Below are positions 13,283-61,990 of a stretch of DNA of 64,000 bases, one piece after another. The notes below the pieces were generated by a model. The model was not told where the DNA came from and made no database searches. It was given only the letters and a program-made list of their open reading frames with translations. Source of the stretch: Octopus vulgaris. Its lineage: Eukaryota. The stretch's first letter is position 1, and every line of letters begins with the position of its first letter. The position numbers and the translations under genes were made by a program. The stretch covers positions 123,256,001 through 123,320,000 of the forward strand of contig OX597815.1 of the NCBI GenBank assembly GCA_951406725.2. The letters run 5' to 3'.

Positions 13283-13526
13283 TGTTGTGCGACAGTATGA
13301 TGCCCCCTGGCAAGAATGGACTGGACCGCTACAAATAGTAGCAGTCTGAGTAAGTGAGGTAGTTCATGCTAGTTCCACAGTTCATGTGTTGATAGTTCAA
13401 AGTTTACAGTTTGAGTTAGCATGTTGGATTGTTGGATCTTAGAAGATTGTTGTTACATTCTGTGTGGTTACTTATTTCGATTATATTGTTATTACACTGT
13501 TGCAGTCTATCCATATGGATATAACA
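13283..13526 (+). repeat. 3' LTR (244 bp)
   Basis: Preceded by the PPT and followed by the TSD; homologous to the 5' LTR with small indels. Confidence 0.93.
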
Positions 13527-13544
13527 GTCACTCTGCCAATATTG

Positions 13545-14390
13545 TTAGTAGAATTTTGACAATAGACTTTGGTGTTGGTGTGAATTACTGGTTTCAGTTT
13601 GTTGGTCAGCATTTCACTGTAGCCTTCCTGATAACTGGAGACCCCCTTTTCTAGGTAATGTTCCAGTATAGGTTCTTTTGCACCCCGAAAAACAGTTAGC
13701 ATCACTTTTTCTGTGGAAGATTGATTCTTGAATTTCTTTTTTGCTGGTGATTTTGGGTGTTTCCATTTCATACTCCGTTTTTTTGATTTTGACATACCCA
13801 TATTTCATCTTTGACTATTCTCTTCAAAAAAAAAAAAAAGCTTTGCCTTTATCATAGTGGTTGAATATGCATTGACATAATTGTATTTATGTATTCTGGT
13901 TAGCACTCTTAGCACCCATCTGGCACAGACTTTATGGAAGTGAAGTTTGTCATGAATGATTTCATATGCAGAAACGTGACTAATTTGTAGAGAACATGCC
14001 ACTCATTAGTTCACCATAACCATCTCTCAAGCTTGTTGAATCTTCATGTCACACTTGTCTGGCCATTTTTAAACTTCTCATTCCACACATACACACTTCT
14101 ATGCAGTAGAGCAGCTTTATCATATGGAACTGGAAGTCTTCAATGAATTTCAGCCCCTGACACACTTTCAGACCCATGAATTCAAATCACTGATCTCTGT
14201 TCTTTGGTGCACACTACCAGTGGAGTGGTCATGTTTACTCAGTAACATAAGGAAGAAAACTGGAGCGATCAAGGTTAAACCTTTGTTACTTAACCACAAT
14301 CACCTTTTAGCATGTGAGCACTGAAGGCAGTGTGGACAGTTTAAAGAAAATTTTGGCAAAAGTGCAGATTATTTTTGACATTAACGTTAC
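13545..14390 (-). mobile_element. mariner transposase remnant (5' half) with degenerate TIR-like end
   Basis: Fragments EIIHDKLHFHKVCARWV (WVPR motif) and WKHPKSPAKKKFKNQSSTEKVMLTVF...ILEHYLEKG, YSEMLTNKLKP are typical of mariner transposases; frameshifted. Confidence 0.85.
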
Positions 14391-28577: not shown

Positions 28578-29109
28578 TTAAGATATACTGTCCTTTGAGT
28601 CATAATATATATTTAAATTCCTTCTTTTGAACTTTTTGTTTTCACCAGGTGAAACTAAAGATGTATTAGATCGTTTTGACGTATTTGAAGAACTTCCTGA
28701 TGAATTAATGGATTCCAATAACTCTGTTGTTTCTATAGTTGATTCATTGTTAACTTCTGCCTGTGGTATATGATCTTGTGGAGAGGTTGGGTCAGGGCTC
28801 TTTTCACTTACATTCTTTAAGTAACTGGTGTGAACATTATCTTCTTCAGAACTAGAACATTCTGAATGAACAGTATCTGTGATATTTTGCATACTAATAT
28901 TAGAGTTACTATTGAAACTACTGTCCATATTATTTAGAACTCTATTTGGGTCTGTTAAATCTAACATATCACAAAGTAAAGTTGTTTGTTCATTGATATG
29001 TATATCTGAGACATTTTCACTTTGCACAAAATTTTCTGGGATGGTAAGATCTCCACCAAAATCATCAATTATATTTTGTATATCTTCATCGGTTGCTGTG
29101 AAATCATAC
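28578..29109 (-). CDS. DBR1: DBR1 coding exon 8 (terminal, 532 nt)
   Basis: cctag|G acceptor; RYDFTATDED...DLTIPENF...NEQTTLLCDMLDL, acidic Ser-rich tail, basic KKFKRRNLNIY motif; stop TAA. Confidence 0.93.
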
Positions 29110-29257
29110 CTAGGAACCAATAGATAAAAAAGAAAAAATCTGATAAGAATATATGAAATGACCCAACATCAGCTAACAAATTTAAATGTAATTTTGCTGA
29201 ACAATGTCTATTAAATAATTCAACATTCCAATCAATGACAAGATCTAAAAGTTTTAC

Positions 29258-29394
29258 CGTTCATCAGTTCCAGGTCCAGGCATATAACAGTTGGACCTAT
29301 GCAAGTTTAGTAAATGGTTAGTTGATTTTAGAACAGCTAACCATTCAGGGTCTAGCTGTAGCTTTAAAGGTTTTCTGTGAGGAATATCTAAAAT
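29258..29394 (-). CDS. DBR1: DBR1 coding exon 7 (137 nt)
   Basis: cttcag|ATT...CG|gtaaaa; ILDIPHRKPLKLQLDPEWLAVLKSTNHLL...YMPGPG. Confidence 0.95.
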
Positions 29395-29581
29395 CTGAAG
29401 TTGAAAAGACAAAAAAAAAAAATTGATATTAATTTAATTGTAGAAAAATATTCCTGTCTTTGACACATAAATATCATAAGTTACAAGTATTTGATTTGCA
29501 GTGTTTGCTTTATGATCACAAATTCAACTAAGTAATGTCTAAAAAAAATTGTTTTTTAAAAATATTATCTAAAACAATTAC

Positions 29582-29659
29582 CTGTAAGAAATCTCTTCTC
29601 GGCAAACATTTATCAAGTGAAAGAAATTTGGTTTTTGATTTAAATTCACCACTTTCAGT
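29582..29659 (-). CDS. DBR1: DBR1 coding exon 6 (78 nt)
   Basis: ttctag|ACT...CAG|gtaatt; TKFLSLDKCLPRRDFLQ conserved DBR1 motif. Confidence 0.96.
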
Positions 29660-31224
29660 CTAGAAATTTATGAAAAAAAAAATAAGAAAACAAAACAGTA
29701 AGCAAATGTAAGTTTAGAAATAATGTGGATGAAGGGACTCTAGTGAAAGGAGACCTGGCTAAAACCTTGGACCTTACTTTGTCAGGAAAAGGCTATTTTG
29801 ATATCAGAAATGCGATCAAAGAGCTATCATCTTATGTCTGTTAAGAAATGTATGTGTTATTATAGACCAAGTTATAGTGAGCAGCATGTACACAGAAGGT
29901 TAGATTTAAGATGGTCATTTATTCTAAGTTGTAGAAAAATAGTACCAGAGATATTTGAAGAAACCCTGCACCTCCAGTGGCAGAACAGATAGAGGAATAT
30001 TCTTTTCTACTCTTGGCACAATGCCCAAAATTTTTGGGGAGGGGGCCAGTCAATTAGATCAACCCCAGATGCAACTGGTACTTAATTTATTGACCCAGAA
30101 AGGATGAAAGGCAAAGTCGACCTCAGCAGAGTGTGAACTCAGAACATAAAGACAGATGAAATACCTGGCATGCCAACAATTTTGCCAGCTCGTTGCCTTA
30201 GAGGAATATTATTGTGCAAGAGTGAGGCACTATACCATTCTTTGAGTCTATATTTACACATCAGCTGTGATGGACTGGTCATATTGTGCAAATGCTCATC
30301 ATCAGCTTCCAAAAACAATTGTCTATGCAGGAAAACATATGAAGAGGACAAAGGAAGTGGTATCTAGATGTACTGAAAAGAAATTCAAACAGGAATCAAT
30401 GTGTACAAGTTTGAGTCTTTTGGTAAATAACTGACACAAGTGGAAACAGGGAGATTAGTTTCAGCCTTTCAGGGTCATAAAAAAAAAGAAAAAAAATCTA
30501 GGGTAGTGGAATGGCAAAAATGTTAGAGTTTAAAAGGTTAGAACTGATAATCACTAAGCTTCCCTTCTGGCTATCAAACAGCAAAACCTGCAGCAACACT
30601 GGTGACAAGCTGTATTGGGCCTAAAGCGTCAGCCTTTGAGGATTTTTTTTTTCAATTATCTCACAGTAACATCATAGTATCTTAAACATCAAGAATTTGC
30701 CTTAAAATTTTCACTTTGTAAACAGAGTGTTCATATGTCTGATTTTACATCCATCTTTCCATGTTAACACAGGCTTACACAAAAATATATTACTGAGGGC
30801 CCTTCCTGCCATTAATTTTTAAAATCTTTTTAAGGAAGGGATGTCTTATTTTACATGTCTTTGGAGGTGTGAAGTGAGCAAACAATTTGTTGAAAGAAGT
30901 GACACCAGCAATACTGCTCGGAGTTTACCTAGAGCACAAATGTAAACAAACACAGGTTCATGTGTGTGTTATATGCATATGACTGGCTTCCTTCGGTTTC
31001 CATCTACTATAGCCCTAAATTAAGTAAAGTCCAAGGTGCCATGCACTGGGATTGAAACCAACCCACAGCTAAGCTTGCCTCTATTATGATTGAGAAATTA
31101 TTCATCTTTTGAATCTGTAAAAATATGATGATATAATGGAAAGTGTATCAGTGTAAGTTTCAATAAAAAAGAAAATGTTTGACTTCACCTTAATTCATAT
31201 GTATCTAATACTATTATAAGGTAC

Positions 31225-31375
31225 AGGCATGAACTATGCAGTTGAGAAGTTTACATATTTTCAGGTTCAGTCTTATTGTGGTACTTTGAGCAAGTGTTTT
31301 CTACTCTAGCCTTGGGTTGACTAAAGCCTGGTGAGTGGATCTAGCAGACAGAAACTGGAAGAAGCCTGTAGTATA
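31225..31375 (+). mobile_element. SINE family B representative
   Basis: GGTTCAGTCCCA..CCTTGGGCAAGTGTCTTCTACTATAGCC..GAAACTGAAAGAAGCCC type consensus. Copies at about 14887-14990(+), 15390-15475(-), 33690-33845(-), 35140-35290(-), 37298-37465(+) and 59300-59455(+). Confidence 0.75.
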
Positions 31376-31966
31376 TATATATATATGATGGACTCTCCTG
31401 CCAAAGATGACATATGAGCGTTCAACTTTTACTGAATGGCCTACACAAATGATTTGTTTATAGTGATCAAATGTATGTGCTTTACATTAGCTCATTCCTT
31501 CTGTCAAATCAACATTACCTGAACAGGTGCACAGTGTACCACATATCAAGTGTTGAAGTGATTGCAGAGCAAAACGAGATGAAGTGTTTTTCTCAAGAAT
31601 GCACCACCCAGTCTAGAAATTGAAACTAAGATTTCGTTGTCATGAGTGCAACACCCTAACAACTAGGCCATGTGTCCACACTATATTGACATGAGTATGT
31701 ATCTCCTTATCTTGATATGATGTGACAGTTGTGAGTATCAGTGTTGAGCAAGCAGTGCCCTTCATTTCCAATTCTCTGTAAAAACATCTGGCCATCGGAA
31801 AATATTACTTTACTTGGAAAAGGTGATTACTGACAGGAAGGGCATCCCGGCATGGAAAATTTTTCTCAACAAATTCCCTCTGGCCCATGCAAACATAAAA
31901 AAGGGGACGTTTAGATGTTGAGATCTATTGTTTGAAGAGTTTAATAATTATTTAAAACATATTTAC

Positions 31967-32191
31967 CCTATGAGGCACAATAGCAGAAAATTTTACATGT
32001 AGATGGGCAGAAAACCAGTATGTTGGTTGAAGGATGTGAAGAAGTTCCTCAGCAGGTGGACTACCTAATGTGTTAGTCTCAATGTCATTTTCCAGAAATT
32101 TCTTCTTTCGAAGGAGATCTCTGAGATCCCCATATTTATGAATTCCACGTGGCCAGTCATGTGATAACATTATATCAACATGCCGCTTGAT
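31967..32191 (-). CDS. DBR1: DBR1 coding exon 5 (225 nt)
   Basis: ttacag|ATC...AGG|gtaaat; metallophosphoesterase motifs LSHDWP and [10 protein letters not shown]. Confidence 0.97.
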
Positions 32192-32373
32192 CTGTAAATA
32201 GATACAATTACATAAATTGTTTAGTGACAGCTTTCTATAATGAAATGTTAAAAAGAAAATTTAAACAAAGCAGCAGTTTAAAACATTTTAGTCCTGGCAT
32301 TTTTTTTTCTTTTGAAAGATATAGGAATAAATTTAAAAGCTATCTTAATGATCATTCTCTATCTTACAATTAC

Positions 32374-32459
32374 CTGTTTCATTCGGAAAAATTCTAAGTT
32401 CCGAACATGGTAGACAGATCGTTTTGTCTCTTCTGTGTAAGGTGGATGTTCATAATGGC
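32374..32459 (-). CDS. DBR1: DBR1 coding exon 4 (86 nt)
   Basis: ttgtag|GC...CAG|gtaatt; GHYEHPPYTEETKRSVYHVRNLEFFRMKQ (lariat recognition loop region). Confidence 0.97.
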
Positions 32460-33443
32460 CTACAATATGAGAATGACAAAATTCATTTATTTTGATCACA
32501 AAATAATATATTTAAAACACAATTATTATGCAATCGTTATATGCATCGCTTTAATATTGAAAAATGTAAAGATCTGCTAGAAATAAAAATTGTGGATCTC
32601 AAATAAATTTAAAGTTTCGGATTCTAACTTTTTTGAGTCAAGATATTAAACTATTGCAATTCATACCATCCTGTTGCCTTCTTATTATGAATCTTTTCTG
32701 TTGTTATCTACTGACATCTTTCAATGTTTCTTAAAAATTCAGCCCTTGCATTAGATTCAAAATGTACAGTAAAGAGATTATGAAATATACTTAGCAACTC
32801 AATACACTCTTACATTATTTGATTCTACTAGCAGCAACCAAACTGCCACTGCTGTAGCATTTGCTAACTTAAATGTTTTATTAACTAATAACTTTTTGAA
32901 AAAAATCTGTGATGAAATTCCTCCAAAAGCAGAGTAATCAATTTTCACCATTGTAAGGCCAAATGGAAGTAACAAAATCTGAATATTTTTGTTTTTATAT
33001 CTAATGCTTCACCTTTCAAGGACAGAAATAGTTTAGTTTAGTTCAGCATTTGAAGAAGATTGGATTAGAACAATCCAAAATGGCAGAGATACAAGACATC
33101 TTGGAAAGATGAAAGTCTCCTCAACAGGGAAAACACAGTAAAGAAGATGACAATAGTTAGAAATGTTTGGGAGAGAACCCACAGATAATATCAGAAGGAT
33201 GAGAAACAGAGATTTTCAAAACAAACTGAAGTCTTAAAGATATAGTAGATTATAAATAGTCACAGAAACCATTTTGTGCAAAGAGTACAACATTAAATGA
33301 TGATGATGATGAGTATAATTAAGACACAGAATATGAGGTTTACTAGTTAACAGGTGAGGGATTAAGTCAGATAGGGAAGGAAAAAAATTCCTTGCATGTT
33401 TTCATATTAATGTTGGAAAATTATTATATCAATGTAGTTTTAC

Positions 33444-33524
33444 CTCTATAAAAATCTTGCCCTTTATAAATCCCTGATAATCCACCAATACGGACACCAC
33501 CAAACTGAACAATAGAAGCATAAC
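33444..33524 (-). CDS. DBR1: DBR1 coding exon 3 (81 nt)
   Basis: ttatag|GT...AGAG|gtaaaa; GYASIVQFGGVRIGGLSGIYKGQDFYR. Confidence 0.97.
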
Positions 33525-34227
33525 CTATAACAGAAAACAAAACCACTGCATGACAAATTAAGTTATCTTTACACTCTTCAGCCATTTTATCTAGTTCAGT
33601 ATTGTCAAACAGTTACTGAATATTTAAGTAAAAAAATTACCCTAAAATATAATCATATGAAGCCCAGACAAAGAGACATGAGAACTTTCACACACACGAT
33701 GGACTTAGTTCGCACTTACCAAATTCATTCACAAGGCTTTGGTTAGCTCAAGGCTGTTGTAGAAAACACTTACCGAAGGTGCTGCACAGTGGGACTGAAC
33801 CTGTGACCATGTGGTTGGGAGGTGAACTTCACCCACATGGCTATACTTTTTCATTTTAGTGAACAATTCCTAGCTATGACTTTCTGGTGGAAAGTATAGA
33901 GAGTAATTGCCAAGAGACTATGTGTAGTTAGAATCATGTAGAAGCTATTGTGGCTAAAGTGGTAATTTTTCATTCACAGAGCATATTAAGTTATAAATCT
34001 TTTTTGAATTTGTTACTCCATCTTGAATGTGCCCATGCATACACACAGAAGTATTATGTTATGTAGACTAACACTTCAACTTATATGATTCATTACTGCA
34101 TGTCCTGACCTGGCACTACACAACACCGTAAACAAATTGAGAGTTGAAAAAACAAATTTGATATCAAAATATAAACAACAACTGGTAATATTTCTTTAGT
34201 AATGACATGACTGAATCATTAACTTAC

Positions 34228-34352
34228 CAAGATAATAAATATTTGGAGCCAACCAGCCACCATAAGGTAATTCTTGCATGTAATTGGAGGCTTCATGATT
34301 CCCTCCAATGATAATTGTGAGAACTGGAGTAACTTTTTCCCCATTATAATAC
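34228..34352 (-). CDS. DBR1: DBR1 coding exon 2 (125 nt)
   Basis: ctctag|G...TTG|gtaagt; [41 protein letters not shown] with the GNHE catalytic motif. Confidence 0.98.
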
Positions 34353-34674
34353 CTAGAGAAAGAGTATTAACATCAATAACTCACAATCCAAAATGGCTAA
34401 CTGCTTTTAAATTGAAGACTAGGAAGTAAAACTTGATGCAAATTTAAAGAAATGTATTTCTAATGATGTACTCAATATAATAATTGTAGAAAGTAAGTAA
34501 AATTATTGGAAAATATTTCTCAACGTTTTTTTTAGTTGCAATTAAAAAAAAACCATACCTGTTCTTTAATATGATATACTTATTAACTTAAGAGTGCTTA
34601 TATTCAAAGTAAATTTTTATGTCCTCAGTAAAATCTAATGATTAGTATTTTAAAACAACAAAATAAATACATAC

Positions 34675-34871
34675 TTATAAAATGAATTCATTTTTTGAAA
34701 TTTCTTTGGTACAGCCATACATTTCATATCACTTTCATATCTGACAGCTTGAAAATCACCACAAATTAAGAGTAGATCAACCTTGGTGTTTTCTTTCTTT
34801 TCAATATACTGAATAGTTTCATAAATTTTGTCCAGCTCTCCATGAGCACAACCCTCAACAGCAATCTTCAT
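34675..34871 (-). CDS. DBR1: DBR1 (RNA lariat debranching enzyme) coding exon 1 (197 nt)
   Basis: [17 protein letters not shown]...LLICGDFQ (Cys8/His10/Asp39 metal ligands); AA|gtatgt donor. A tttcag acceptor 18 nt above the ATG implies an upstream non-coding exon. Eight exons total 1461 nt = 486 aa. Confidence 0.98.
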
Positions 34872-36229
34872 TTCTATGTTAGACCAAAACTGAAATAGAA
34901 AAAGAAAAGATCATGTTATATTCATAACAACTTTTATTTGTTTCAGTCATTAGACTGTGGCCATGCTGGAGCACTACCTTGAAGAATTTTAGTTGAGTGA
35001 ATTGACTTGGTTATTTTAATTTGCTGTACTGCTAAATTATAGGCACAAAAACACACCAAAAATGGTTGTCAAGCGATGGGGAGGGGGAACAAACACAGAC
35101 ATGAAAACATACATATATATATTTATATGTATGTACACAATAGGCTTCTTTCAGTTTCTGGCTATCATCAAATCCACTCACAAGGCTTTGGTCAACCCAA
35201 GGCTATAGTAGAAGACACTTGCCCAAGGTACCATGCATTGGGATTGAACCTGGAACCATGTAGTTGCGAAGCAAGTTTCTTACCACAGAAAATATTTAAC
35301 TCAGAAATTTTTGTTTCATTTCTTTGAGAGGATACATTCAAATAGTTTTGTTTTTGCTTGCACCAGTGACGTAGGCAGAAAGCTAACAGAGCACTCAGAC
35401 CTGAGTCTTTTGGATACAGATATAGTTTAAGATGGATGGCAGAAGAACTATCATCTAACTCCACAATAATTGTGTGAAAAATTCGTGTCATGTGTTGATA
35501 AGAAAGAGAGAAAACTAAGGTTGAATTTTCCTTGAGACTGATTTAATTTTGAATAAAATAATAAAAAGCTAAGAAACCAGAAGGTGCATGGTCTAGTGAT
35601 TAGGGTGTTGGCACTCATGATTGTGAGATCATAGTTTTGGCTGCCAGACCAGCTGTGTATTGTGTTCTTAAGCAAAACACTTCATTTCATCTTGCTTCAG
35701 TCCACTCAGCTGATAGAGTGGTGTACAAAGGTGAGATGGTGACTCAAGAAAATCACCTGAATGGCAGTCTTGTGAGCCGTGCTTTTATTAATCTCTGATT
35801 AAAAGGGTGAATAGTACAACCTGTACTATATATATTGATAAAAATGGTAAGACAACAAAAGAATGAAAGAGACCTCGATATTATGTAAATAGAGGAATTT
35901 ATCTGTAAATGTAATATGTGACAATTATTCGGTAGCCATGATAAATCTATGCCATCATCTCTTCAGTTATCTGGCCATTGGAAAAATGCTATGAAAAATG
36001 ACCATTATACAAAGGGAAATTACTGTGTGATTGACTGTTATTAAGACAAAAGAGCTATTTGAATGACTGCTGAGGGGAGGGAGTAAAAGTAACGGGGTAA
36101 AAAAGTTCATACTATTAGTTAAAATTATAATTGTAACTAATTATTACCTTTGAAGGTTTTTATTCCCATGCTGGCCACCTGAGAAGATTAGTATTTAAAT
36201 ATCGATTTTATCCTTATTTATATAAAGTG

Positions 36230-42100: not shown

Positions 42101-44200
42101 TAGGACATTTCAAGAATTGTGTTGGCATCATTTCAGTTTTCAAGTTCCAGTGATGTATCTTATCACATAACAACAACAAGTCCTATTATCATTTTTGTCT
42201 GACACCTATAAATAAGTTTATTGGTCCATAACATATCCTTGTATTTATTCTTGCTTATAAATTGATTGATCAACAAAAAGCATAAGTTTTTGTTGATGAT
42301 TTGTTCTCCTACTGTTGTATGGAACAAGCTGAATTAATATGATATCTATATGTCCATGCATGCATATTTCCACATCAACTGACACTGTGTGTTTGGGGTA
42401 TGCAAAATCCTTGCTTGGAAAACGTTTCAAGATTCAGTTAATATCTTCATCAGCAAAACAGTGTACCTTTTCCTTCCTTGTAAAATGCATAAGAAATAGT
42501 CTTTTACTCTTGCATCTGAAGGGTCTTCACATTTTTATTTGTTTGAAGTTTGTTAACATAGTGAATAACCTTTATACTGATATGACTCTCATATTCATCA
42601 AGTATTAATTGCTCCTTTTTTTCCCCAGTTAGTGTATGCCACAGAATGCTTCATGAAAATAGGAAATTTTTCTGCTGACCACCACCCAAAATAATGTGCT
42701 ACTCCAAGGTAACACAGATCATGTTCCCTACTGCACTAATTACACAGCAAATAGTCACTAATTATTCTTGCTCTGCCAATACTTTGGCTGAAGCTTTTTA
42801 TCCCTCTTTTCAGCAGCTACTTTTCCTGACATTTGCACATTTATACATCCAACTTTTATTAAAACTCTATAGGTGGACAACACATATCTGGAGAACCTGT
42901 GTTTACATGTTTATAGTTATTGAAAAAGATGGTCACCTTATGATGATTGAAGCTGGTTTTTATAATCCAGGAATGATACCTTAGGTGTCCCCCATGAAAT
43001 GTTATGTTTCTTAAGAGAATTATGCAACCACTCTTTGCTTGCATTTTCATTCTCCTTTCAAGACTAGGGAGAATTGACTCATATGCACAAACGTTTTGAA
43101 ATGAACTGTTACATAATAACCCTTACCAGCATAAGGGCTATTACATGTACTGGTGTACTTGTGATAGTGGTGTTAGTTGAAACATGTTCTCACTAACTCC
43201 ATGCAATAATGACCTCAACATATGCAGTGTGCACAACATAAACTGGAACAGGCAAATTATTTGCCACCTGCTTCCAGTTTTTTTATTTAAAAAAATCAAC
43301 ACAAACATGTTCATTCCTTTCTACTAAACAAACTGAATAATTTCAACAAGTGAAAATACAGAAACCTTTCTGTATGCTTGAAAATCTTCTGCATCAGCTT
43401 GATACCAATATGGTTGAAAAATAGTACAGGAGGCTCTCACATGATGGAATCATATTGTTCTTCAGATTCCTTGTTTCTATTCATAAAAGTTTCAATGCAT
43501 TCCATGTTCCAACCAAATTTTTTGTGTTGTATTTACTTTTATATGAACTGTTATTGAGAGTTGCTTACAATTACTGTTAAGTTTACAGAGCTTTTTTTTT
43601 TTTAATTAAGAGGAAAAGTTTAACTGGTTGTGAATTTTTAAATTGATAAATAATATATTAATGTTTGACAGAACATACCTTTCAGAAAAGGTATACATGA
43701 CATATGTATTGTTTTAGCACCCACAAAAAGAAATACAACTATTTTATTGAAGTTTAACACCAGAATGATGTTTAAACAGGACAACAATAAGCTGTGAATG
43801 TGTTACCACATTAAAAACGAAAAGGAATGTTGGATGAATGAGAAGATAAGGTGTTCATTTTTGTTTCATCATTTTCTTTGTTAAAAGCTTGTATTGGACA
43901 TGATGGCCCAATATGGAACAACTGAGTAACACTGGAAAATTCAGCTCATTATAGTAGTATGTTCATTTATATGAAAGCAAGAATATTTCTGTGTAAGTGG
44001 TGAGAATGTTAGTGTTAATGCACACAGCTTTCGACAGTTCATCATTTTGACAGCAGCAAATGTTGAGACTCTATTTTAAATACAAAACTTTTGCCTGATG
44101 TTACGCTTTGCTGCTCACATTGCTTAGATCCTGACTTTTACATTAGATGTAGTGAAGTTCATAAGTGTGCAGCTGGGAAGGCAAGCAGTGTGAAGTGCAT

Positions 44201-44402
44201 GTGTGTGGATGTAGGTATAGAATAAAGTTGATGAAGTTTGTGTGTGAATGTAGGTATAGAATAAAGTTGATGAAGTTTGTGTGTGGATGTAGGTATAGAA
44301 TAAAGTTGATGAAGTTTGTGTGTGGATGTAGGTATAGAATAAAGTTGATGAAGTTTGTGTGTGGATGTAGGTATAGAATAAAGTTGATGAAGTTTGTGTG
44401 TG
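44201..44402 (+). repeat. 39-bp minisatellite, 5 near-identical copies
   Basis: Unit GTGTGTGGATGTAGGTATAGAATAAAGTTGATGAAGTTT starting at 44201, 44240, 44279, 44318 and 44357; one substitution seen. Confidence 0.97.
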
Positions 44403-44699
44403 TATGTGTATGCATGGTGTGTTGGGTGTAAGGGATGTTTTAGAGGAAAGTAAGTCAGTTGTCCATATTGCAGGGAGACTTGGACTAATCCTGTACTATA
44501 CCAAGCTGCATGTTTTCTTTTACACCTAATAAACAGTATCTAACAACACCAATTGCTTCACCAATCTCAGCCAACTCTCACAGGATGCCCAGGGCAATTA
44601 AAAATTCTTGATATACTCATCAGCTTGTGTTGATACTCTGTGAATGACTGAGACTTTGATTTCAAGAATCATTTTAGGTATCTCTTGATCAGAAATTGC

Positions 44700-52442: not shown

Positions 52443-52638
52443 TTAACTGCTATTATTAAATGGATTTGGTCTCAAATTTGACAGTTTATTGCTGTTGGTG
52501 CAATGATTGACACTATGTACGTGCCTCTTGGTGTATGTATGGAAGAAAATAATATTGATACATATTTGGATTTTGCATTCTGTTCTTTTCTGAAGTTCTT
52601 GAATATATAGTGTTGTCAGCATCAGATAACATTGGTTT
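52443..52638 (-). CDS. Orphan secreted glycoprotein, probable last exon (reading frame unresolved)
   Basis: Strong acceptor tttttattttttacag at 52639/52638. Stops at 52622, 52513 or 52443 depending on entry phase. AATAAA on minus strand at 52490-52485. Confidence 0.4.
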
Positions 52639-52680
52639 CTGTAAAAAATAAAAATAAAAACAGAATATTATAACCTTTAA

Positions 52681-52698
52681 ACACACACACACACACAC

Positions 52699-52733
<35 letters not shown>

Positions 52734-53020
52734 TGTATGTATGTATGTATGTATGTATGTATGTATGTATGTATGTATGTATGTAGGTATGTGTGTAGGT
52801 ATGGGTGTATGTATGGATGCATGTATGTATGGATGCATGTATGTATGGATGCATGTATGTATGTGTGGGTGTATGTATGTATGGGTGTATGTATGGGTGT
52901 ATGTATGTATGAGTGTATGTATGTATGTATGTATGTACGAGTATATGTATGTATGGGTGTATGTATGGATGTATGTGTAGACAGACAGACAGACAGATAG
53001 ATAGATTGATAGATCGATAA

Positions 53021-53107
<87 letters not shown>
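52681..53107 (+). repeat. Compound microsatellite (AC)n-(ATGT)n variants-(AGAC)n-(AGAT)n
   Basis: Directly visible; source of the spurious HTYI/YVCM/SIYL ORFs. Confidence 0.97.
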
Positions 53108-53269
53108 TGAATGACAAAAGAGAAGTTATGTCATCTTCATTGGATTACTGCTGTTTCAGCCACATGGAACTGTACACTCACAGTTGAATGCCACTATGAC
53201 ATCTTATAACCCTTAACATAAAATGTTAACACATTGCGATTGGGAAGAGAGTGTGTTAAAGAAAGCAAG

Positions 53270-54355
53270 GTATCACTAGGGAGAAGCATATTAAAAATTC
53301 TGAAGGTACACATGCTATTGTTTCTGATGATCAGAAAGAAGCAAAGATCTGCTATGATGAGATGCTGTTAAATCTAGAGAATGCATGGGATAAAGAGGGA
53401 ATGCCTCATGCTGACCCTCAGAACGACCAACAGTTCACATTGACTATAGTGTGTTAGACAATGAATAAGAACATGAAAGTAAAGAAAGCTACTTGCTTAT
53501 CATTGATAGTTGCTGAGATACTCAAAATAGGATTCATAATCAGCTGCATAGTTAATCAAGTAATACAGGAAGGCATCTTAGCCAATGACTGGTGTAGCAG
53601 TATCATTACAAACTGCTACAAGGGCAAAGGAGATGTCTTTTAGAAAAGAAATTATAGAGACATCAAATTGGAGGACCATGGAGAGTCATAGCACTAATGT
53701 TCTTCAATGAAGTTATCTATTGAACAACATAATAAATATGATGCTGTTTGGTTTTGTGCCCTGAAGAAGCTACTACAGATGTAATCATCTTCATGAGACG
53801 AGTGCAAGAGAAATACTTAGCTAAAAGTAAGTTGCTATAGTTGGTATTTGTAGATGTAGGTTCCATGTTTGGTAATCTGATAGCCCCTATGGAAACTGAT
53901 TGTTAACCATGAGTTCAGCTATAAACTTAGCTGGCAATGAAGATCATTTCCCTCAAATCTAAGGGTGTGATGCTTATGTTAGAATTGTTATGCTGGATAA
54001 TAGTGAAATATGGGCCTTGAATACAAAATGCTTGTAAAGATTAAGTTTGTGTGCATGAATACTAAAGCAGAAACGAGTTGAGAGGAAAACTAAGTAAGGG
54101 AGGAATTAGGTGTAATGTGCAAGAGAGAAAACAGCATTTGTATGAGAATATGATGCATATGGAAGATAGATAATGCATGAGGAAGTGCCAAGCACTCCAA
54201 ATTAGAGGAACTTGCTGAAGAGAGAAACCAAGGAAGACATGGGACAAGTTGGTGAAAGTTGCAACATCTCATGGAGGAGATGACAAATTACTGCTGATTG
54301 GTGATATATGATGCTGCAGAAGACCAGTCTGCCCATGGCAAAACCTGCCCTGACG
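53270..54355 (+). mobile_element. Decayed RTE-type LINE (RT region with internal deletions)
   Basis: IVAEILK...IVNQVIQEGILANDWCSSIITNCYKGKGD, NYRDIKL, FGFVP and C-terminal KPRKTWDKLV motifs. Confidence 0.85.
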
Positions 54356-55476
54356 CAAAAAATAGTATTTAGAAACTGATATATTTTTGTTATTCACTGA
54401 CCTTTCATTCTCACCCCATCTCATCTCATCTCTCTCTCTCTCTCTTTCTCTCTCTTTATATCGAAGTGTGTGTGTGTGTGTGTACATATACACACACATA
54501 AGCATACACACTGTTCTTCTGTCCCCAGGGCCCACCCTGACACCTCGTCTCCACCAACTTTATTTCTCCTTCCAACTCCATACTGATAATCCACTCTTGT
54601 ATAATATGAGCAGCCATTTACTTCTTATCCAGCAAGAATACTCTAACTTTTCATCACTGAGTGTAAAAGCTGCCTTTCTCTCTACCGTAGCTCTACTTAC
54701 CTGATAGAGATCTTAGTTTTGCAATTTACATGGCGTCTTCACTAGGGCTGGTACCACAAATAAAAAAAAAACCCAGTACACTCTTTAAAATGGTTGGTGT
54801 TAGGAAGGGCATCCAGCCATAGAAACCATGCCAAAGCAGGCCATGGAGTCAGGAACATTGAAGCAAACATAATGAGCCTGTAACATTGGCAGGGCAGTCG
54901 AATTACTTTGCTCCAGCATTGCAGCACATTGGTGCTGCGTTCCACCACTCTTGAAAGCTAACGGCAGAGGAATACACATGACAACTTCCACCCAGAGTAA
55001 TAGCATGCGCTTTTCAAAGGTGTTTTATCCAGTTACTGTCTAAATGTCAGAACATTAACATCTGGTTCCCTTTCGTAGCTGCTTTGCTTTATCCCATTCA
55101 TATGTAGGCACTAATCTATTAACAAGCTTGTGGCTTGTCTAGCTCGACACACTATGGGATTTCTACCTCACCTCACTACCACTTCAAAATTTATTGGATA
55201 TTTTAGATTTGCAGCCAAGTACTGGAGCTAACTACCTTGATGTGCATTAAGGAATTAACCCATGCCTCCTACACCCTAGTGTCTTGTACACTTATCTCTG
55301 TTGTGCTACCTACTTCATGTGTGAGCAAGGAATAAATTATGTTTGTTAACCAAAAGCATACCTCCTGATTTTTAGTGTTACCTTTATGTAAAACATGCAT
55401 TTATACATTCAAACCTTCTTATGTGCACACATCTAAATATACTTCCTAAACTGGTAAAGCCCAACTCTTAATTTAC

Positions 55477-55492
55477 CTCTTGTTACAAGCCA
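55477..55492 (-). CDS. Candidate 16-nt microexon TGGCTTGTAACAAGAG
   Basis: Preceded by a long pyrimidine tract ending in aag and followed by GAG|gtaaat. The AAG acceptor is weaker than YAG. Confidence 0.3.
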
Positions 55493-55777
55493 CTTATGGA
55501 TGGAAAAAGAAAAGGAAAAAAATACTATTAACAGGTTCATGACACTTAAAGTAATTCTATGGATTTTAAAGGCTCATAATTCTTATGAGTTTGGGGAGAA
55601 TTGCTTTAGTGCTTTCAAATTATTCACTTTGGGGATATTAGATCCAAGATTTTAATCAGTTGCCTAGTTAAAATATAATGATAATTCTGTTCCTATTGCC
55701 AATTAATATTCAATAACTCATTGAACAAATCTCAACACAAGAAAATTAATTTAAAACTATTTTTAGTAGCTACTTAC

Positions 55778-55864
55778 TCTCAGTTGAACAATTCACAGAT
55801 TTTGCTAGTTTTCCATTGAGATGGTCTTCCAAAACAGTTGGAGATGAATAAAAACAGCTCGATA
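55778..55864 (-). CDS. Orphan secreted glycoprotein, candidate exon (87 nt) VSSCFYSSPTVLEDHLNGKLAKSVNCSTE
   Basis: gttag|TA...AGA|gtaagt. Only the phase-1 frame is open, which matches the upstream donor. Confidence 0.55.
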
Positions 55865-57718
55865 CTAACAATATTTTGTGAAGTATTTAATTAAGAAAAA
55901 CATTAAGAAATTTCTGTTGCAATCTTAATGTATTCCTTTTACAAAGACCTACTTATAGCCAATGTAGGATTTAAACATGGGAAGACTCTAAGACATATTG
56001 TATAAAGCCTTATATACACAAGAAGGTCCTTTCCATTATTTTGAGACCTCTGTGAATTGTGAAACCTTATGCTGTCCAGATGTCTTGCATTCTTGTTCCA
56101 TTTTGTATTTTATATATATAGATATATATATAGAGAGAGATAGAGAGAGAATGAAAAATATGAATAGAGTTGTTTTTGTTCAAACTATGCTACATATATT
56201 TAGACAGCATGTCTATTTATTTGTTCACAATGTATTACATAATGATATTATATAATGTAAATTACATAACCAAACCATTTCTTGAGGCATCTTGAACAGT
56301 TGACAGTTAAAATTGGTTTGTATGTGTATCTATTCTTTTATTCTTTTACTTGTTTCAGTCATTTGACTGTGGCCATGCTGGAGCACTGCCTTTAGTTGAA
56401 CAAATCGACCCCAGGATTTAATGTCAGCTACTCTGCTGGCATGGGCTGGCTGGTTCGACAGGACCTGATGGGCTGGAGAACTATGTCATGCTCCAATGTT
56501 TACTTAGCATGATTTCTATAGCTGGAATCACTTCATAATGCCAACCATTTTACAGAGTGGACTGGGTGCTTTTTCTTTTGTGACATTAGCACTAGTGAAG
56601 ATTGTTTCAGGTTAAGGTGCCTGAAATGTTTTCTACAGCTGAGGGAGAATAAAGGAGAGAGCATGCAATGATTCTAAGTAGGGGAGGTAAGTGAGAGGAG
56701 AGGACCAGATTTATAGTTACAATTGGATGGCTGTGGAGGGAGTGACAGTAAGCATTAAGTAGTTAGTATGACAAAGAACAAGGGAGAGTGAAGGGATCAG
56801 TGTCAAGGGTTATTAAGAAAAATGGGAGGACAGAGTAGGAAAGTGATAGAGTGAATTGTTAGGTGGGGGAAAGAGGAAATGGAGGATGTAATAGATTAGG
56901 GTGGAGAGGAATTCTAAGAGAGTCATGCTCTCTAGGTTCATATTAATTTCTTTTATTTGTGGAAGGTCATAAATTTGTCAGGAAGGATTTTAATTGAGTA
57001 GACCTTGTATGGTAAATATCTATTAATCCTTTCAAAGAAAGGCAAATTCAACAGTTGTTATGTTTGTTAGATTAAATGATTTTGTATGTGAGTTTAATAT
57101 TTTTGTCATTATCATATCTATTTAACTTTAGCATAAGTTATTATTTTGGCTCAAAGACACAAATTTTGGAAGAAGATTGCAGTCAATCTGATTGATCCAA
57201 TATTTGACTGCTTTTGTTTTTTTTTTTTCAATATCAATCTTAGAAAGAAAATAAAGTTAACCATATTAAGGTTTGAATTTAGCAATAAAAAGCAACTAAA
57301 GGCCATTAGATATTCAGTTTAACTTTCTACAGTTTCTACAAACCACTGTTTTCTGCTTTAGTGATTGTATAAAATACCTTATAATGTTTTGCTATATTTC
57401 TTTATATTCTGAGTTCAGATTTGGGGGGGATTTTATAAGGATTATTTTTGCACTTCATCTTGGGATCAATTTAATGGATTATTATTACTTCTTCCATACA
57501 AATTTCTGATTCCATCTCAGAATTAGAAATAATGATTTTGAGAAAATAATAATTTTAATTTAGACTTCTTTAACAGAACAATAAAGAATAATTTACTGGC
57601 AATGTACACTGATATACTCCAATGTTGTTTTGGTTCAATGCAGCAATAACAAATCTAAAGACTAAAAGAAAAAATGCAGAATAAATTATGAATTTCTTTC
57701 AAAATCTTTCATACATAC

Positions 57719-58999
57719 CAAGGGAAACATTGCCTGTAGCTGCTTTGGAAATATTATTTTTCTTCATCAATGTTGGATTGTTTGCTTGGGTAGTTATTTC
57801 AAGAGACAATATTTCCCTTAAAGTCAGACTCACCAAATTCAAGTTACTCATGAGAGGAGAACTCATATTATGTTTGGCCACAGTGGTATTTGTTGAAAAA
57901 TTGGTCCCATTCTTTGTACCATTGTCTCTTTCTGCATTAGTCTTATTTGACACTGTTGCATTTGCCTTGTTGTTCTTATATTTAGTTTCATCAGCAGCAG
58001 AAGGGTTGGAAATTTCAGCTGTACTCCTGACTGCATACTGCGAACCATTTACGTTTTTGATCTTACTTTTTGTGTTTGGTGTGACAGCTTCAGCACTATC
58101 ATTTTGCACAGTAGTACCATTTATAGTTTGTTGATCATTGTTTATAGTTTCATTAGTAGCAGTCTTGTTTGGCATGTCACCCCTCTTGCTGATGTTTGTT
58201 AATTCTTCCTGGAAACTTTCTGCTTCAAGTGCTACAAAGTTTTTGACTGTGGATGATTCTGGAAGATTATCAAGGTTTTTGTCAGTGTCATTTGTATGTT
58301 GGGTCATTGAAATATTTTGCCCTTGGCCTGTACTGGTAGAGTTAGGACCCTTTTCTACATTTTCTCCATTGGCAATATTTGAATCATTCACTGTTCTTAT
58401 TTCCCTTGTTATTTTTCCATCTGAAGAACTGACATTTTTCATAGTTGTTTCTTCACTATTTCTTACTGCTGTGCCATTTTCTCTTGTTGTATTTCCCCTA
58501 GTTGACATATTCACCTGGTTATCTGATTTACTTTCAGTTTCCTTTTTACTAAAACTTGAAGTAACATTGCTAGATGCATTAACAAGTTGATGATCTCCAG
58601 TTTTTACACTACTATTTAAAATTTCTGTTGTGTTATTGTTTATGTGTTGGATTGAGTTACTTGATGTATTTACAGCTGTATCATTTGTAACTTCTAAATT
58701 ATTTCCAGTAGAAACATTGCTTTCTGGAGCTTTGTCTTCAGTCTCAAAATTGAAATGTTGGGTATCTGTCACAGGACTCACATTTGTATCATTAGAAACA
58801 GTGGAGTTTTTACAGTAATTGACAGTTTTGTTTGAGTTTGAAACAGAGCTATTGCTTGAGCCATCAGCTTGCACCACAGAGTTATTAGATTGCTGGATAT
58901 TTTTTTCTTGTAATGTAATCTTTGAAGAGTCATTCTGAGCTGCCTTGGATGATGGTTGATTTTGAATAATTATCATATTTAAAGTAGCATTTTCTGAGG
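57719..58999 (-). CDS. Orphan secreted glycoprotein, 1281-nt Asn/Ser/Thr-rich exon
   Basis: ttttcag|CC acceptor; contains the 425-aa ORF 57699-58976; TTG|gtatgt donor; phase 1-1. Confidence 0.8.
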
Positions 59000-59951
59000 C
59001 TGAAAATAAAAATTATAGAATTTAAAACTGTAAGCAGCAATCATAATGAAATGTTAATTAATGGAATAGTCAAGAACTCTGGTGAATTTAGAAAGCTAAG
59101 TGGCAACAGTAATAATATTTGTTTTATGTGAAATCATTTGTTTCTACTGTTCTATTTATAAAATATTTTGAAGCATTAAATTTCGTGTTTCTGAGGCAAG
59201 GGATTCCTGTCACTGTACCAGCAATATCTATAAGTTTAATGTAAGGAAATAGTTGAAATCATTTATATGTTCAATGTAATGAAATATATAAATGAAACAA
59301 ACATGGTCATGGGGTTAAGAAGTTTGCTTCTCAATCATGCAGCTTTAGGTTCAGTCCTAGTGTGCCACACCTTTTGCAAGTGTCTTCTACTATATCCTCA
59401 GACTGACCAATGCCTTGCAAGGGAATTTGATAGACAGAAACTGAAAAAAGCCCATTATGTGTGTGCGTGTGTGTGTGTATACATGTGCATGTGTATGTGT
59501 GCACATGCATGTATCAATGTTTACAAAACTACACGGAGCCATGGCTATGAATAATAACATTACCATTTGTGTTTGGATTGCAAATGGTGATGTTTGTTGG
59601 CATTTCCAATCAACAAATTGTCTGCTAGCTCTGCTTCCAAAAAGAAATACTTCAATTGCTATAAGGATTGGGATTGAAAGTGCATTTGGTCATAAAAATC
59701 CTGCCTCTATTTCCTCTGTCTAAGCCATGCCAGTATGGTCATTAAATGAAACAAACAAATAAGTAAATGAATGAAATCCTTTAACACTAAATTTTCTGTT
59801 CTGATTTTGTTAAAAGGGGGGAAAAAAAGAGCAACAAAAAAACTTTGATTTTTGTCATAAGATTCAGTTCACAATATCAGAGTGTGTGAAGCCTGTACAA
59901 GAAGTAAGAAGTTTGTTGTTGCATAGTTGTAATATTGAAAGAAGACTTTTA

Positions 59952-60190
59952 AGGTGGTGAGCTGGTAGAAACGTTAGCACACCAGGCAAAATGCTTAGAG
60001 GTATTTCATCTGCCAGTATTTTGTTCTGAGCTCAAATTCCACCGAGGTCGACTTTGCCTTTCATCCTTTCAGAGTTGATTAAATAAGTCCCAGTCATGCA
60101 CTGGGGTCGATGTAATCAACTTAATCCCTTTGTCTGATCTTATTTGTCCCCTCTATGTTTATCCCCTGCGGGCAATAAAGAAATAAATAA
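59952..60190 (+). mobile_element. Near full-length SINE (family A) with TSD
   Basis: tRNA-like head (GGTGAGCTGG...TCAAATTCC), core GTCGACTTTGCCTTTCATCCTTT, A-rich tail; TGAAAGAAGA direct repeat at 59936-59945 and 60191-60200. Other copies at about 8340-8484, 16010-16500, 19030-19240, 30000-30200, 48060-48275 and 50970-51180. Confidence 0.85.
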
Positions 60191-60689
60191 TGAAAGAAGA
60201 TCATCTACAGAGAATTGAAAGAAAGAAATCATGTATGAGGCATCAAATATACAAATTTGAGCTAGAAGTTAAATACAAGTTCTCAGGAGATAGACTGAGA
60301 AGGAAAGTTTTTAAGTAATGTGAACAGAATTTGTTGCTGTACTTGTCTGGATATATAATGAAAATATACTACACCTTAGTGAAAAAGAATTAGGCTAAAC
60401 CTAGGACATGGAAAGGAGTGAAAAACTTGGGTGTCTGACTTTGTCACAGAATTACTTCTGGCCTTCAATCTCAGGCTTAAAAATATCTAAATGTTCACCT
60501 ACAGTGCATTGATAACTTTTAAGAAACAACTATGTATAATTACTTGCATTAACTGGTGATTAAAATTCTTAGATTTAGTTAAAATTTTATGGAAAGCCAA
60601 ATTGCTGGTCCTTGACTGAAAAAAATAAATAAATTCACCAACTGAAAACTCTTCTACTATAAATGGAAATTGCTCTGATGAATACTTAC

Positions 60690-60821
60690 AGTCCTTGGTG
60701 CACATAAGATAAGGGACATTTCCATCATTGTCATCAACACATTTACAGTTGTAGGGAGAGCCATTAAATGACAATGTTTTGTTTTGTTGGGTTAGTATAG
60801 AAACATTCTTGTAGTAACAAT
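60690..60821 (-). CDS. Orphan secreted glycoprotein, 4-Cys module exon (132 nt)
   Basis: ttgcag|AT...ACT|gtaagt; NCYYKNVSILTQQNKTLSFNGSPYNCKCVDDNDGNVPYLMCTKD; phase 1-1, in frame with both neighbours. Confidence 0.8.
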
Positions 60822-61929
60822 CTGCAATGGAAATTAATTTCTATTAACATATATATCTGCATAACTACTAATATAAATACCTGTATACCTACAAACCTAC
60901 CTTCCTATCACTATATTGATCTACCCAGCCAGTTATATAGCATATCCTTTATCTCTCTCTTCCTACCTTTGTATATCCTTACCTACTAAATTATGCTTCT
61001 AAATTTTTATTTACAAGCAAATAAGAATCAGAGTGCAGGGACACTAATAATGATTTGTGTTGATAAAAATCATTTAACAAAGTTCACAATATAGTTTAGT
61101 TTTAATGCCAAGGAAGGCATGAGTTCTAACATTTTGAGCAAAGCAATTTCTTCAGGAAGAGAAACATTTAAATGTTTAAGATATCACTGAGCTAATAGGT
61201 TTTACACAGTATTATCTAAAGAATGGCTTTCTTTGAAATGTAAGTACTAATATTTCCTTATGGCATATAAATTTACATATTTCTTTAACAATTTATCCAG
61301 ATTTTGATACTATTTACCAATTTATCTAGCTTCTTCTTTAACTACTTATTTGCCAACCTGTTATCTACATAAATTCATATGTATGTATCTCCATCCTTCT
61401 CTGTTTACCATCTTAACAGATGTACAATCTTATCTGGTTATGCGTCCAGGGCAAAACATTAAATGCATCTGGTGGTAAAGTCCCAGCAAGAGAGTTCAGG
61501 AGTTTCACGAAAAGTATGGAGGTGGAAAATGCGTGAGAAAAAGAGAGGTAGGCAACACCAACAATACAAGAGAGGAAGAAGGGGGGTCAGAAATGAGTAG
61601 CTAGTGCAGAACAGTAGAATAGTAATGAGGATACAGCAGACAGGAGAAGGACGAGAGTGATGATAAGTTGTTGGGCAGGTCACAGGAATGAGTGGGTAAG
61701 AGTAAGTAGTCAATACAGTATTGGAGCAAAAATTGTTTTTAGTTCTTCACACTCTAAAAGCCTTGATACTTGTAAAAAGTTCAGTTTGATATATTCATTA
61801 TACCAGGGGAAAAAATGGTAACAAAGAAAGAAAATTATATCTCAAATCAATTTATAAACAGACTGAAAAACTTAGTTGTAAATTTTTGCTGATAGCATAG
61901 AAATGTTATAAATTTAGAATCTTACTTAC

Positions 61930-61990
61930 TTTTTTCAGCAGAGCAAATTGACAGCAATAAGATGAAAATAATTTGAAAAGTAGTTTCCAT
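61930..61990 (-). CDS. Orphan secreted glycoprotein, signal-peptide exon METTFQIIFILLLSICSA-EK
   Basis: ATG in AGGATGG context just below a ttattag acceptor. Hydrophobic core followed by a C-S-A cleavage-type site. AAA|gtaagt donor, phase 1. Confidence 0.8.

What the first reader, a model, noticed from the sequence alone, without database searches (positions are those of the whole stretch)
52443..61990. Unrecognised secreted protein with extreme N-glycosylation density
Seen: signal-peptide, 4-Cys and 1281-nt exons splice in frame (all phase 1). By manual count the large exon has about 39 N-X-S/T sequons in 427 codons, roughly one per 11 residues, plus 3 more in small exons. It has no tandem repeat and little Pro, unlike PTS mucins, and no TM or GPI tail is visible. 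Inference: a soluble, largely disordered N-glycan brush protein of about 525-590 aa with small disulfide caps. It could be a lineage-specific mucus, egg-coat, sucker/skin matrix or salivary component. I recognise no family.
Basis: partly seen in the sequence, partly recalled or inferred. Interest (0 to 1): 0.7.

Follow-up and report, generated by a model that had tools for sequence, protein, structure and literature searches.

The report
Octopus N-glycan brush with fibronectin-like cap
This is a real but unstudied octopus gene for a secreted, mostly unfolded protein packed with N-glycosylation sites (about one per 12 residues), topped by a small module predicted to fold like a fibronectin type I domain, so it may work like a mucin built on N-linked rather than O-linked sugars.

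Summary
The window is Octopus vulgaris. The 1281-nt exon has 39 N-X-S/T sequons in 426 codons against 18.2±3.4 in shuffles (0 of 20,000 reach it). Three orthologues keep the excess (z 5.5-6.4), and controls do not show it. Annotated Octopus proteins confirm exons 1-3 but join exon 3 straight to a 5-codon last exon: 496 aa, 42 sequons. New here: the 4-Cys exon folds alone at pLDDT 81, and its top 8 structural matches among 48,161 chains are all fibronectin type I modules (Z 4.2-5.1), a domain described as chordate-specific. There is no sequence-level family match, so it is FnI-like in fold, probably a trimmed VWC/E-type module, and not a Pfam member. Named homologues are all Octopus. Isoforms lack the cap exon or a 69-nt GT-AG segment. 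Best reading: a secreted mucin-like hydrated brush with a binding cap. Glycan occupancy, tissue and function are inferred, not shown.

The parts
61930..61990 (-). Coding exon 1: start codon and signal peptide (hydrophobic core, likely cleavage after Ala18), phase-1 donor. An acceptor just upstream at 61996 implies a further 5' exon, not found in the window.
   Evidence: identical N-terminus in O. sinensis P0002 and near-identical in O. bimaculoides P0003; hydropathy peak 1.46 at residue 1; cleavage site judged by eye, SignalP not available; 5' extension of P0001 not found in the window.
60690..60821 (-). Coding exon 2 (132 nt, phase 1-1): 4-Cys module C-X23-C-X-C-X12-C with 3 sequons; predicted beta-hairpin plus three-stranded sheet, fibronectin type I-like fold. 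Absent from O. bimaculoides isoform X2.
   Evidence: (pLDDT 81.2); no Pfam hit.
57719..58999 (-). Coding exon 3 (1281 nt, phase 1-1): disordered Asn/Ser/Thr-rich region with 39 sequons, no tandem repeat.
   Evidence: (pLDDT 23-31, no secondary structure over most of it).
58515..58583 (-). 69-nt in-frame GT..AG segment inside exon 3 (23 aa, 2 sequons) missing from O. sinensis X1 and O. bimaculoides X2; possible exitron.
   Evidence: only 3 of 401 codon positions allow such a GT..AG removal; weak acceptor, 5 of 15 pyrimidines against 9-12 at the four supported acceptors.
57801..57857 (-). Sequon-free, moderately hydrophobic segment near the C-terminus, the only helix the full-length model places in exon 3; below transmembrane hydropathy.
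   Evidence: helix 499-523 of P0001, low confidence; hydropathy 0.92; 80% of columns invariant in that 25-column block.
55778..55864 (-).
   Evidence: Open, GTAAGT donor, 8 of 15 pyrimidine acceptor; used by 0 of 3 annotated proteins; similarity to exon 2 not significant (P 0.08).
52622..52638 (-). Coding part of the last exon: five residues and TGA stop; AATAAA at 52490.
   Evidence: same end in P0001, P0002, P0003.

Best explanation
An octopod-restricted secreted glycoprotein that works like a small soluble mucin but carries N-glycans. The signal peptide sends it into the ER (inferred from sequence), where oligosaccharyltransferase loads most of about 42 sequons along a disordered chain (sequon excess shown; occupancy inferred). 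That gives an extended, hydrated brush of roughly 50-64% carbohydrate by mass (estimate). The N-terminal four cysteines close a small FnI/half-VWC-type beta module (predicted fold) that probably tethers the brush to a matrix or surface partner by beta-strand addition (inferred by analogy). The likeliest role is a lubricating, space-filling or protease-resistant barrier component of a secretion or apical matrix. Splicing may remove the cap or trim glycan number (inferred from annotated isoforms).
For: Sequon excess z 6.2 with clean offset, frame, reversal and neighbour-gene controls. Excess kept in 4 of 4 sequences (39, 37, 34, 32 sequons; z 5.5-6.4) while 45 different columns are used, and sites are often kept when X changes, i.e. 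turnover at steady density. 55% of Asn lie in sequons and only 2 of 42 sequons have Pro at +3. Full-length model has no confident structure (pLDDT 28). Cap: pLDDT 81.2; top 8 rows of 48,161 chains are FnI modules, rmsd 1.2-2.1 A over 37-40 of 43 residues; top 13 rows in the second look are FnI-containing; strands fall at the same places in the full-length model. Three independent annotations give the same junctions and stop. Density is about 11 times the mean of human secreted sequon-bearing proteins, 3.9 per 500 aa (PMC10987669, passages and section 13).
Against: No glycan, expression or tissue data. Site-level conservation is weak: sequon Asn are better kept than other Asn in only 2 of 6 comparisons (p 0.04 and 0.036, uncorrected, both against P0004), and S/T at +2 in 0 of 6. 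The nuclear DBR1 tail control shows a mild non-significant excess (8 against 5.0, P 0.09). Fold Z-scores are only 4-5.6, under the tool's stated caution level of 8; Foldseek found nothing at E<=0.001 and ranked unrelated chains first; the model rests on 2 near-identical sequences and two of five models were below pLDDT 70. Not found by name or peptide in held parts of skin-mucus, ink or salivary proteome supplements. One annotated isoform lacks the cap (P0003), so the cap is not always needed.
Confidence: 0.6

Rival explanations
1. Reproductive secretion or cortical-granule glycoprotein (egg-stalk cement, spermatophore, hyosophorin-like carrier) that is cleaved or deglycosylated to release glycopeptides, rather than a general mucus or matrix brush.
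For: Hyosophorin is the nearest known N-glycan-dominated unstructured polyprotein (PMC12753239, passages). Absence from the held skin, ink and salivary lists and lineage restriction fit a gonad or accessory-gland product. A Lys-Arg site lies mid-chain in P0001-P0003.
Against: No repeat units; the Lys-Arg site is lost in P0004; unlike cuttlefish egg-case proteins, which have 50-55 Cys, 1-5 sites and are cationic (PMC4500399, passages). The proteome negatives are weak for a heavily glycosylated protein.
Confidence: 0.2
2. Structural or mineral-associated matrix protein (sucker cuticle, beak, statolith), working like dentin sialoprotein.
For: UniRef label begins 'Dentin sialophosp' for P0003; DSPP is the human secreted protein with most sequons; RGD in 3 of 4 sequences; Con A stains sucker acetabulum cuticle and arm m3 cells in paralarvae (PMC5607860, passages).
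Against: Only mildly acidic (45 D+E against 38 K+R; pI 5.4); no Asp-Ser-Ser repeats; no chitin-binding or other Pfam domain; the label is compositional, with no DSPP among homologues; RGD not kept in P0004.
Confidence: 0.12
3. The ectodomain of a cell-surface glycocalyx protein whose membrane-anchor exon is used in isoforms not seen here.
For: Signal peptide, small Cys module and long glycosylated stalk is the usual layout of such proteins (recalled); P0002 and P0003 clusters hold 3 and 2 members that could not be listed.
Against: 3 of 3 annotated proteins stop five residues into the last exon, with AATAAA 130 nt later; no transmembrane or GPI-grade segment.
Confidence: 0.07
4. An ordinary Asn/Ser/Thr-rich low-complexity or O-glycosylated protein whose sequons are incidental.
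For: S+T is 26%, so O-glycans are possible as well; site-level conservation is weak.
Against: Sequons are twice the composition expectation in 4 of 4 sequences and only at offset +2.
Confidence: 0.03

Closest known systems
Fibronectin type I (FnI, finger) module of fibronectin, factor XII, tPA
   Same: Four Cys in C..C-X-C..C order, about 43 residues, predicted hairpin plus three-stranded sheet superposing at 1.2-2.1 A; one phase 1-1 exon (that FnI exons are class 1-1 is recalled).
   Different: 10-19% identity, no Pfam match, no Trp, 12 residues in the last loop against about 6-9 (recalled), three sequons on the module, found in a mollusc whereas FN1 is called chordate-specific (PMC3308698, passages).
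VWC N-terminal subdomain and E modules of VWF, gel-forming mucins, FCGBP; beta-microseminoprotein
   Same: Next-ranked fold matches: VWF C4 Z 3.8, MSMB3 Z 3.7, FCGBP Z 3.6, MUC5B Z 2.6, CCN3 VWC Z 2.6; within about 1 Z of several FnI rows. Ancient and present in invertebrates (recalled), so the likeliest source of the exon.
   Different: Only 4 Cys and no second subdomain; stands alone, with no VWD, C8 or TIL.
Mucins with PTS domains and lubricin-type brushes
   Same: Signal peptide, small Cys-rich cap, long disordered glycosylated region in one large exon.
   Different: Pro 2.3%, Asn 16.7%, no tandem repeats, selected N-sequons in place of PTS O-sites; none of the VWD/C8/TIL/E assemblies listed for gel-forming mucins (PMC11207715, passages); about 500 aa.
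Hyosophorin (fish cortical alveolus glycopolyprotein)
   Same: Unstructured core dominated by N-glycans (over 90% glycan, PMC12753239, passages).
   Different: Hyosophorin is a repeat polyprotein cut at fertilisation (repeat structure recalled); this protein is non-repetitive, has a folded cap and no sequence relation.
Dentin sialophosphoprotein (DSPP)
   Same: Secreted, disordered, sequon-rich (67 sequons, rank 2 by density among human secreted proteins; PMC10987669 section 13); RGD present.
   Different: No homology found; density here about 1 per 12 against about 1 per 19 (DSPP length of about 1300 aa recalled); no phosphophoryn repeats; not strongly acidic.

Membership tests
Fibronectin type I module | Four cysteines in C..C-X-C..C order in about 40-45 residues (recalled) | tested here: met
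   C-X23-C-X-C-X12-C; last spacing longer than the recalled 6-9.
Fibronectin type I module | Double-stranded plus triple-stranded antiparallel beta fold | tested here: met
   Predicted model only: pLDDT 81.2; top 8 rows FnI, Z 4.2-5.1, rmsd 1.2-2.1, 37-40 aligned; best Z 5.6, rmsd 1.4, 40 aligned. Foldseek not significant.
Fibronectin type I module | Disulfides paired 1-3 and 2-4 (recalled) | not testable with these tools
   Model coordinates are not returned.
Fibronectin type I module | Match to the family's sequence profile, with conserved aromatic/Trp core | tested here: not met
   0 Pfam families at E<=10 for the module and for P0002, P0005; no FnI chain in PDB sequence searches; no Trp in the module.
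Fibronectin type I module | Encoded by a single phase 1-1 exon (recalled) | tested here: met
   132-nt exon, phase 1 at both ends; shared with many extracellular modules, so weak.
VWC domain / E module | Ten (VWC) or six (E) cysteines (recalled) | tested here: not met
   Four Cys in the module.
VWC domain / E module | FnI-like N-terminal subdomain fold | tested here: inconclusive
   VWF C4 Z 3.8 (rmsd 1.8, 40 aligned), FCGBP Z 3.6 (2.1, 37), collagen IIA VWC Z 2.5 (1.7, 34); cannot be ranked firmly against FnI.
Gel-forming mucins | VWD-C8-TIL-E assemblies at the N-terminus | tested here: not met
   No Pfam domain in P0002-P0004; feature list from PMC11207715.
Gel-forming mucins | Pro/Thr/Ser-rich, usually repeated, O-glycosylated domain | tested here: not met
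   S+T 26%, Pro 2.3%; no tandem repeat. O-glycosylation itself not testable.
Hyosophorin | Tandem short repeats each with one sequon (recalled) | tested here: not met
   sequon spacing 1-38, not significantly more even than random (P 0.08).
Hyosophorin | Storage in egg cortical alveoli, cleavage at fertilisation | not testable with these tools
   No expression data.
DSPP / SIBLING | Sequence homology, acidic Asp-Ser-Ser repeats (recalled) | tested here: not met
   No such hit; pI 5.4.
Sepia egg case proteins | 50-55 Cys in three domains, cationic | tested here: not met
   5 Cys in the mature chain, pI 5.4 against PMC4500399.

The most novel reading that the evidence does not exclude
Octopods independently invented an N-linked mucin: a non-repetitive disordered chain selected for near-saturating N-glycosylation (denser than the densest human secreted proteins), tethered by a free-standing four-cysteine FnI-fold module that arose outside chordates, in parallel with the vertebrate finger domain, from a VWC/E-type exon; cassette and exitron splicing switch the tether and tune glycan number.
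Probability: 0.3. Interest if true: 0.72.

Novelty: new variant of a known kind. Interest (0 to 1): 0.5.

Why it matters
Glycan brushes in animals are nearly always O-linked PTS mucins; PTS-based searches would miss this protein. If occupancy is high it is a natural, non-repetitive N-glycan bottlebrush: a model for how densely oligosaccharyltransferase can load a chain, and a candidate component of octopus secretions. A stand-alone FnI-like fold in a mollusc bears on where the supposedly chordate-specific FnI module came from and suggests that such modules hide below sequence detection in invertebrate orphans. The limits: one orphan gene of unknown tissue, a predicted fold with modest scores, and known analogues for each part.

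Tried and rejected
Homology: exon 3 query, 4 of 6,026 candidates, three named Octopus and one unnamed; Cys exon against longer proteins, 3 of 3 candidates (that query and those ended in one residue read into the intron donor); profile against shorter proteins, 0 of 503; phmmer over 1.84 billion representatives, 3 hits. One of these, P0006, is a 16-fold filamin-repeat protein matched by a short motif summed over repeats: rejected as chance. No squid, cuttlefish or other mollusc hit, but cephalopod genomes could not be searched by tBLASTn, so restriction to octopods is not proven. Prokaryote genomes: 0 of 123 pattern matches confirmed. ESM Atlas: no usable hit twice. PDB sequence searches: only chance hits. 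Foldseek's top rows by E-value (0.7 or worse) were unrelated beta proteins. Full-length fold unusable. Internal repeats rejected. Exon 4 as a decayed copy of exon 2 rejected (P 0.08). Literature: 0 papers hold LOC106875936; no listed paper held the DDB_G0286901 label; other searches (listings only unless cited) showed no study of this gene. Supplements searched without a hit: PMC9699675 (3 files, one not searched), PMC9712504 (3 files, one unreadable), PMC10138644 (file cut when stored), PMC12961712 (736 characters only), PMC7693380, PMC10142993. The supplement of PMC11431876 could not be read and bioRxiv supplements were closed; these could hold expression evidence. PMC5562741 and PMC6337849 (passages) added only background. 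Other isoforms in the clusters could not be listed. Viral and metagenome contig collections stayed unchecked. No complex prediction was run, since no specific partner is claimed.
Full report
Setting. The window is Octopus vulgaris: the large exon matches a protein of that species at 100%. Upstream in window coordinates lie a plus-strand gene ending in a VPS9 domain (GAPVD1 by recall) and a minus-strand lariat debranching enzyme gene. Neither is related to the finding, and no paralogue of the target lies in the window.

Gene model. Exons 61990-61930, 60821-60690 and 58999-57719 splice in frame through phase-1 introns. The same junctions are used by the O. vulgaris protein P0001 and O. sinensis isoform X1 (P0002); O. 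bimaculoides LOC106875936 isoform X2 (P0003) joins exon 1 to exon 3. All three then go to a last exon at 52638, read five residues and stop at 52622, with AATAAA at 52490. P0001 carries 52 extra N-terminal residues that are not encoded in the window and are absent from the two RefSeq proteins, so they are probably misread 5' UTR. The supported protein has 496 aa, 42 sequons, a mature mass near 52 kDa and pI 5.4. Support for splicing is indirect: agreement of three annotations, not reads that I saw.

Sequon excess. Exon 3 holds 39 sequons in 426 codons against 18.2±3.4 by shuffling (0 of 20,000). The signal sits only at offset +2 (41 of 71 Asn against 13-20 elsewhere), holds in each third, and is missing in the reversed chain and the other five frames. 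Two non-secreted neighbours serve as controls: z -0.6 for the plus-strand exon and z 1.6 (P 0.09) for the Asn/Ser-rich DBR1 tail. The three orthologues have 37, 34 and 32 sequons in the same region, z 5.5-6.4. P0001 shares 30 of 39 sites with P0003 and 28 of 39 with P0004, and 45 columns are used in all, so sites turn over while density stays. Per-site tests are weak: 2 of 6 Asn comparisons reach p<0.05 uncorrected and 0 of 6 Ser/Thr comparisons. That fits selection on density more than on position, but four close sequences give little power. For scale, human secreted proteins with sequons average 3.9 per 500 aa, and DSPP with 67 ranks second by density (PMC10987669, passages and section 13); this protein has about 42 per 500. 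With 1.2-2.2 kDa per glycan (assumed) and full occupancy it would be 49-64% carbohydrate.

Disorder and anchoring. The full-length model has mean pLDDT 28 and no secondary structure over most of exon 3; with four near-identical sequences this is consistent with disorder but not proof. Aromatic residues are 2%. After the signal peptide no 19-residue window exceeds hydropathy 0.92, so there is no transmembrane or GPI signal in the seen isoforms. Two sequon-free stretches, one acidic and amphipathic in mid-chain and one leucine-rich near the C-terminus, are well conserved and may be contact sites (inference).

The cap. Exon 2 encodes C-X23-C-X-C-X12-C. No Pfam or PDB sequence match was found. Folded alone it reached pLDDT 81.2, with models at 81, 77, 76, 62 and 58. 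Against 48,161 representative chains, 227 scored Z>=2 and 2 scored Z>=5; the top 8 rows are all FnI modules of fibronectin or factor XII (Z 4.2-5.1, rmsd 1.2-2.1 A, 37-40 of 43 residues), followed by VWF C4, microseminoprotein, another FnI, the tPA finger and FCGBP; the first unrelated fold scores 3.4. The second look gave 11 of 737 chains at Z>=5 and FnI-containing entries in the top 13 rows. The model's first Cys aligns at chain positions 21, 66, 308, 470 and 561 of fibronectin, which I recall as the first Cys of those modules. Against this, the Z-values are under the tool's caution level of 8, Foldseek gave nothing at E<=0.001 (its best TM-scores, 0.76 and 0.68, were FnI), and the predictor may favour a familiar fold for this Cys pattern. 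FN1 is described as chordate-specific (PMC3308698, passages). I therefore call the module FnI-like in fold but not a family member; descent from the older VWC/E type by loss of the second subdomain is the most economical origin (inference).

Isoform variation. P0003 lacks the cap exon. P0002 and P0003 both lack the same 23 residues, which in the window are a 69-nt in-frame GT..AG stretch (58583-58515). It is present in O. vulgaris and in the most distant sequence P0004, although O. sinensis is otherwise nearly identical to O. vulgaris. Only 3 of 401 codon positions allow such a removal, which favours an exitron, but the acceptor is poor and a genomic deletion is not excluded.

Distribution. 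All named homologues are Octopus; two unnamed records at 76% and 93% identity are probably other octopods. A full search of 1.84 billion representatives added only a filamin-repeat chance hit. Fast-evolving low-complexity genes are easily missed, so absence from squid and cuttlefish is not shown.

Mechanism. Shown: gene structure, signal-peptide-like N-terminus, sequon excess kept across species, lack of anchor, lack of repeats. Predicted: disorder of the body and FnI-like fold of the cap. Inferred: high glycan occupancy, an extended hydrated brush, tethering through the cap, and a lubricating or barrier role in a secretion or apical matrix. The tissue is unknown. Con A-positive mucous cells and sucker cuticle exist in O. 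vulgaris arms (PMC5607860, passages), but the protein was not found in the held parts of skin-mucus, ink or salivary supplements; those negatives are weak because files may be cut and glycopeptides are missed without deglycosylation. A reproductive role like hyosophorin is the main rival.

Verdict. A real, selected feature in a gene annotated only as uncharacterised; no paper on it was found in ten library searches. It works like a mucin-type brush but fails membership of mucins, hyosophorin, DSPP, Sepia egg-case proteins and the FnI sequence family. New variant of a known kind; interest 0.5.

Noticed in passing
window 58176-58184 (-): RGD tripeptide directly after a Lys in exon 3, in 3 of 4 sequences (RDD in P0004); with an FnI-like cap it recalls fibronectin, but it may be chance.
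   Followed up: partly
window exon 3, residue 127 of the 496-aa protein: One unpaired Cys in O. vulgaris and O. sinensis; O. bimaculoides has one at a different place and P0004 none. Could allow disulfide dimers, but not conserved.
   Followed up: partly
window 57833 (-): A GTGAGT donor-like site inside exon 3, phase 0; joined to the last exon it would give a different 41-residue C-terminus (frame seen). No annotated protein uses it.
   Followed up: no
window about 28580-34900 (-): DBR1 lariat debranching enzyme gene; its last exon is Asn/Ser-rich with 8 sequons in 177 aa though the protein is nuclear (not significant).
   Followed up: partly
window about 1170-27290 (+): Multi-exon gene ending in a VPS9 domain, GAPVD1-like by recall, tail to tail with DBR1.
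   Followed up: partly
window 8909-12730 (+): Broken ORFs that look like remains of an LTR retrotransposon pol (RNase H and integrase-like text, recalled) inside an intron of the VPS9 gene.
   Followed up: no
window 13481-14186 (-): Broken ORFs resembling a mariner-type transposase (recalled).
   Followed up: no
window 44200-44407 and 9463-9685: Minisatellites of 39 nt (5.3 copies, 98% match) and 67 nt (3.4 copies).
   Followed up: no
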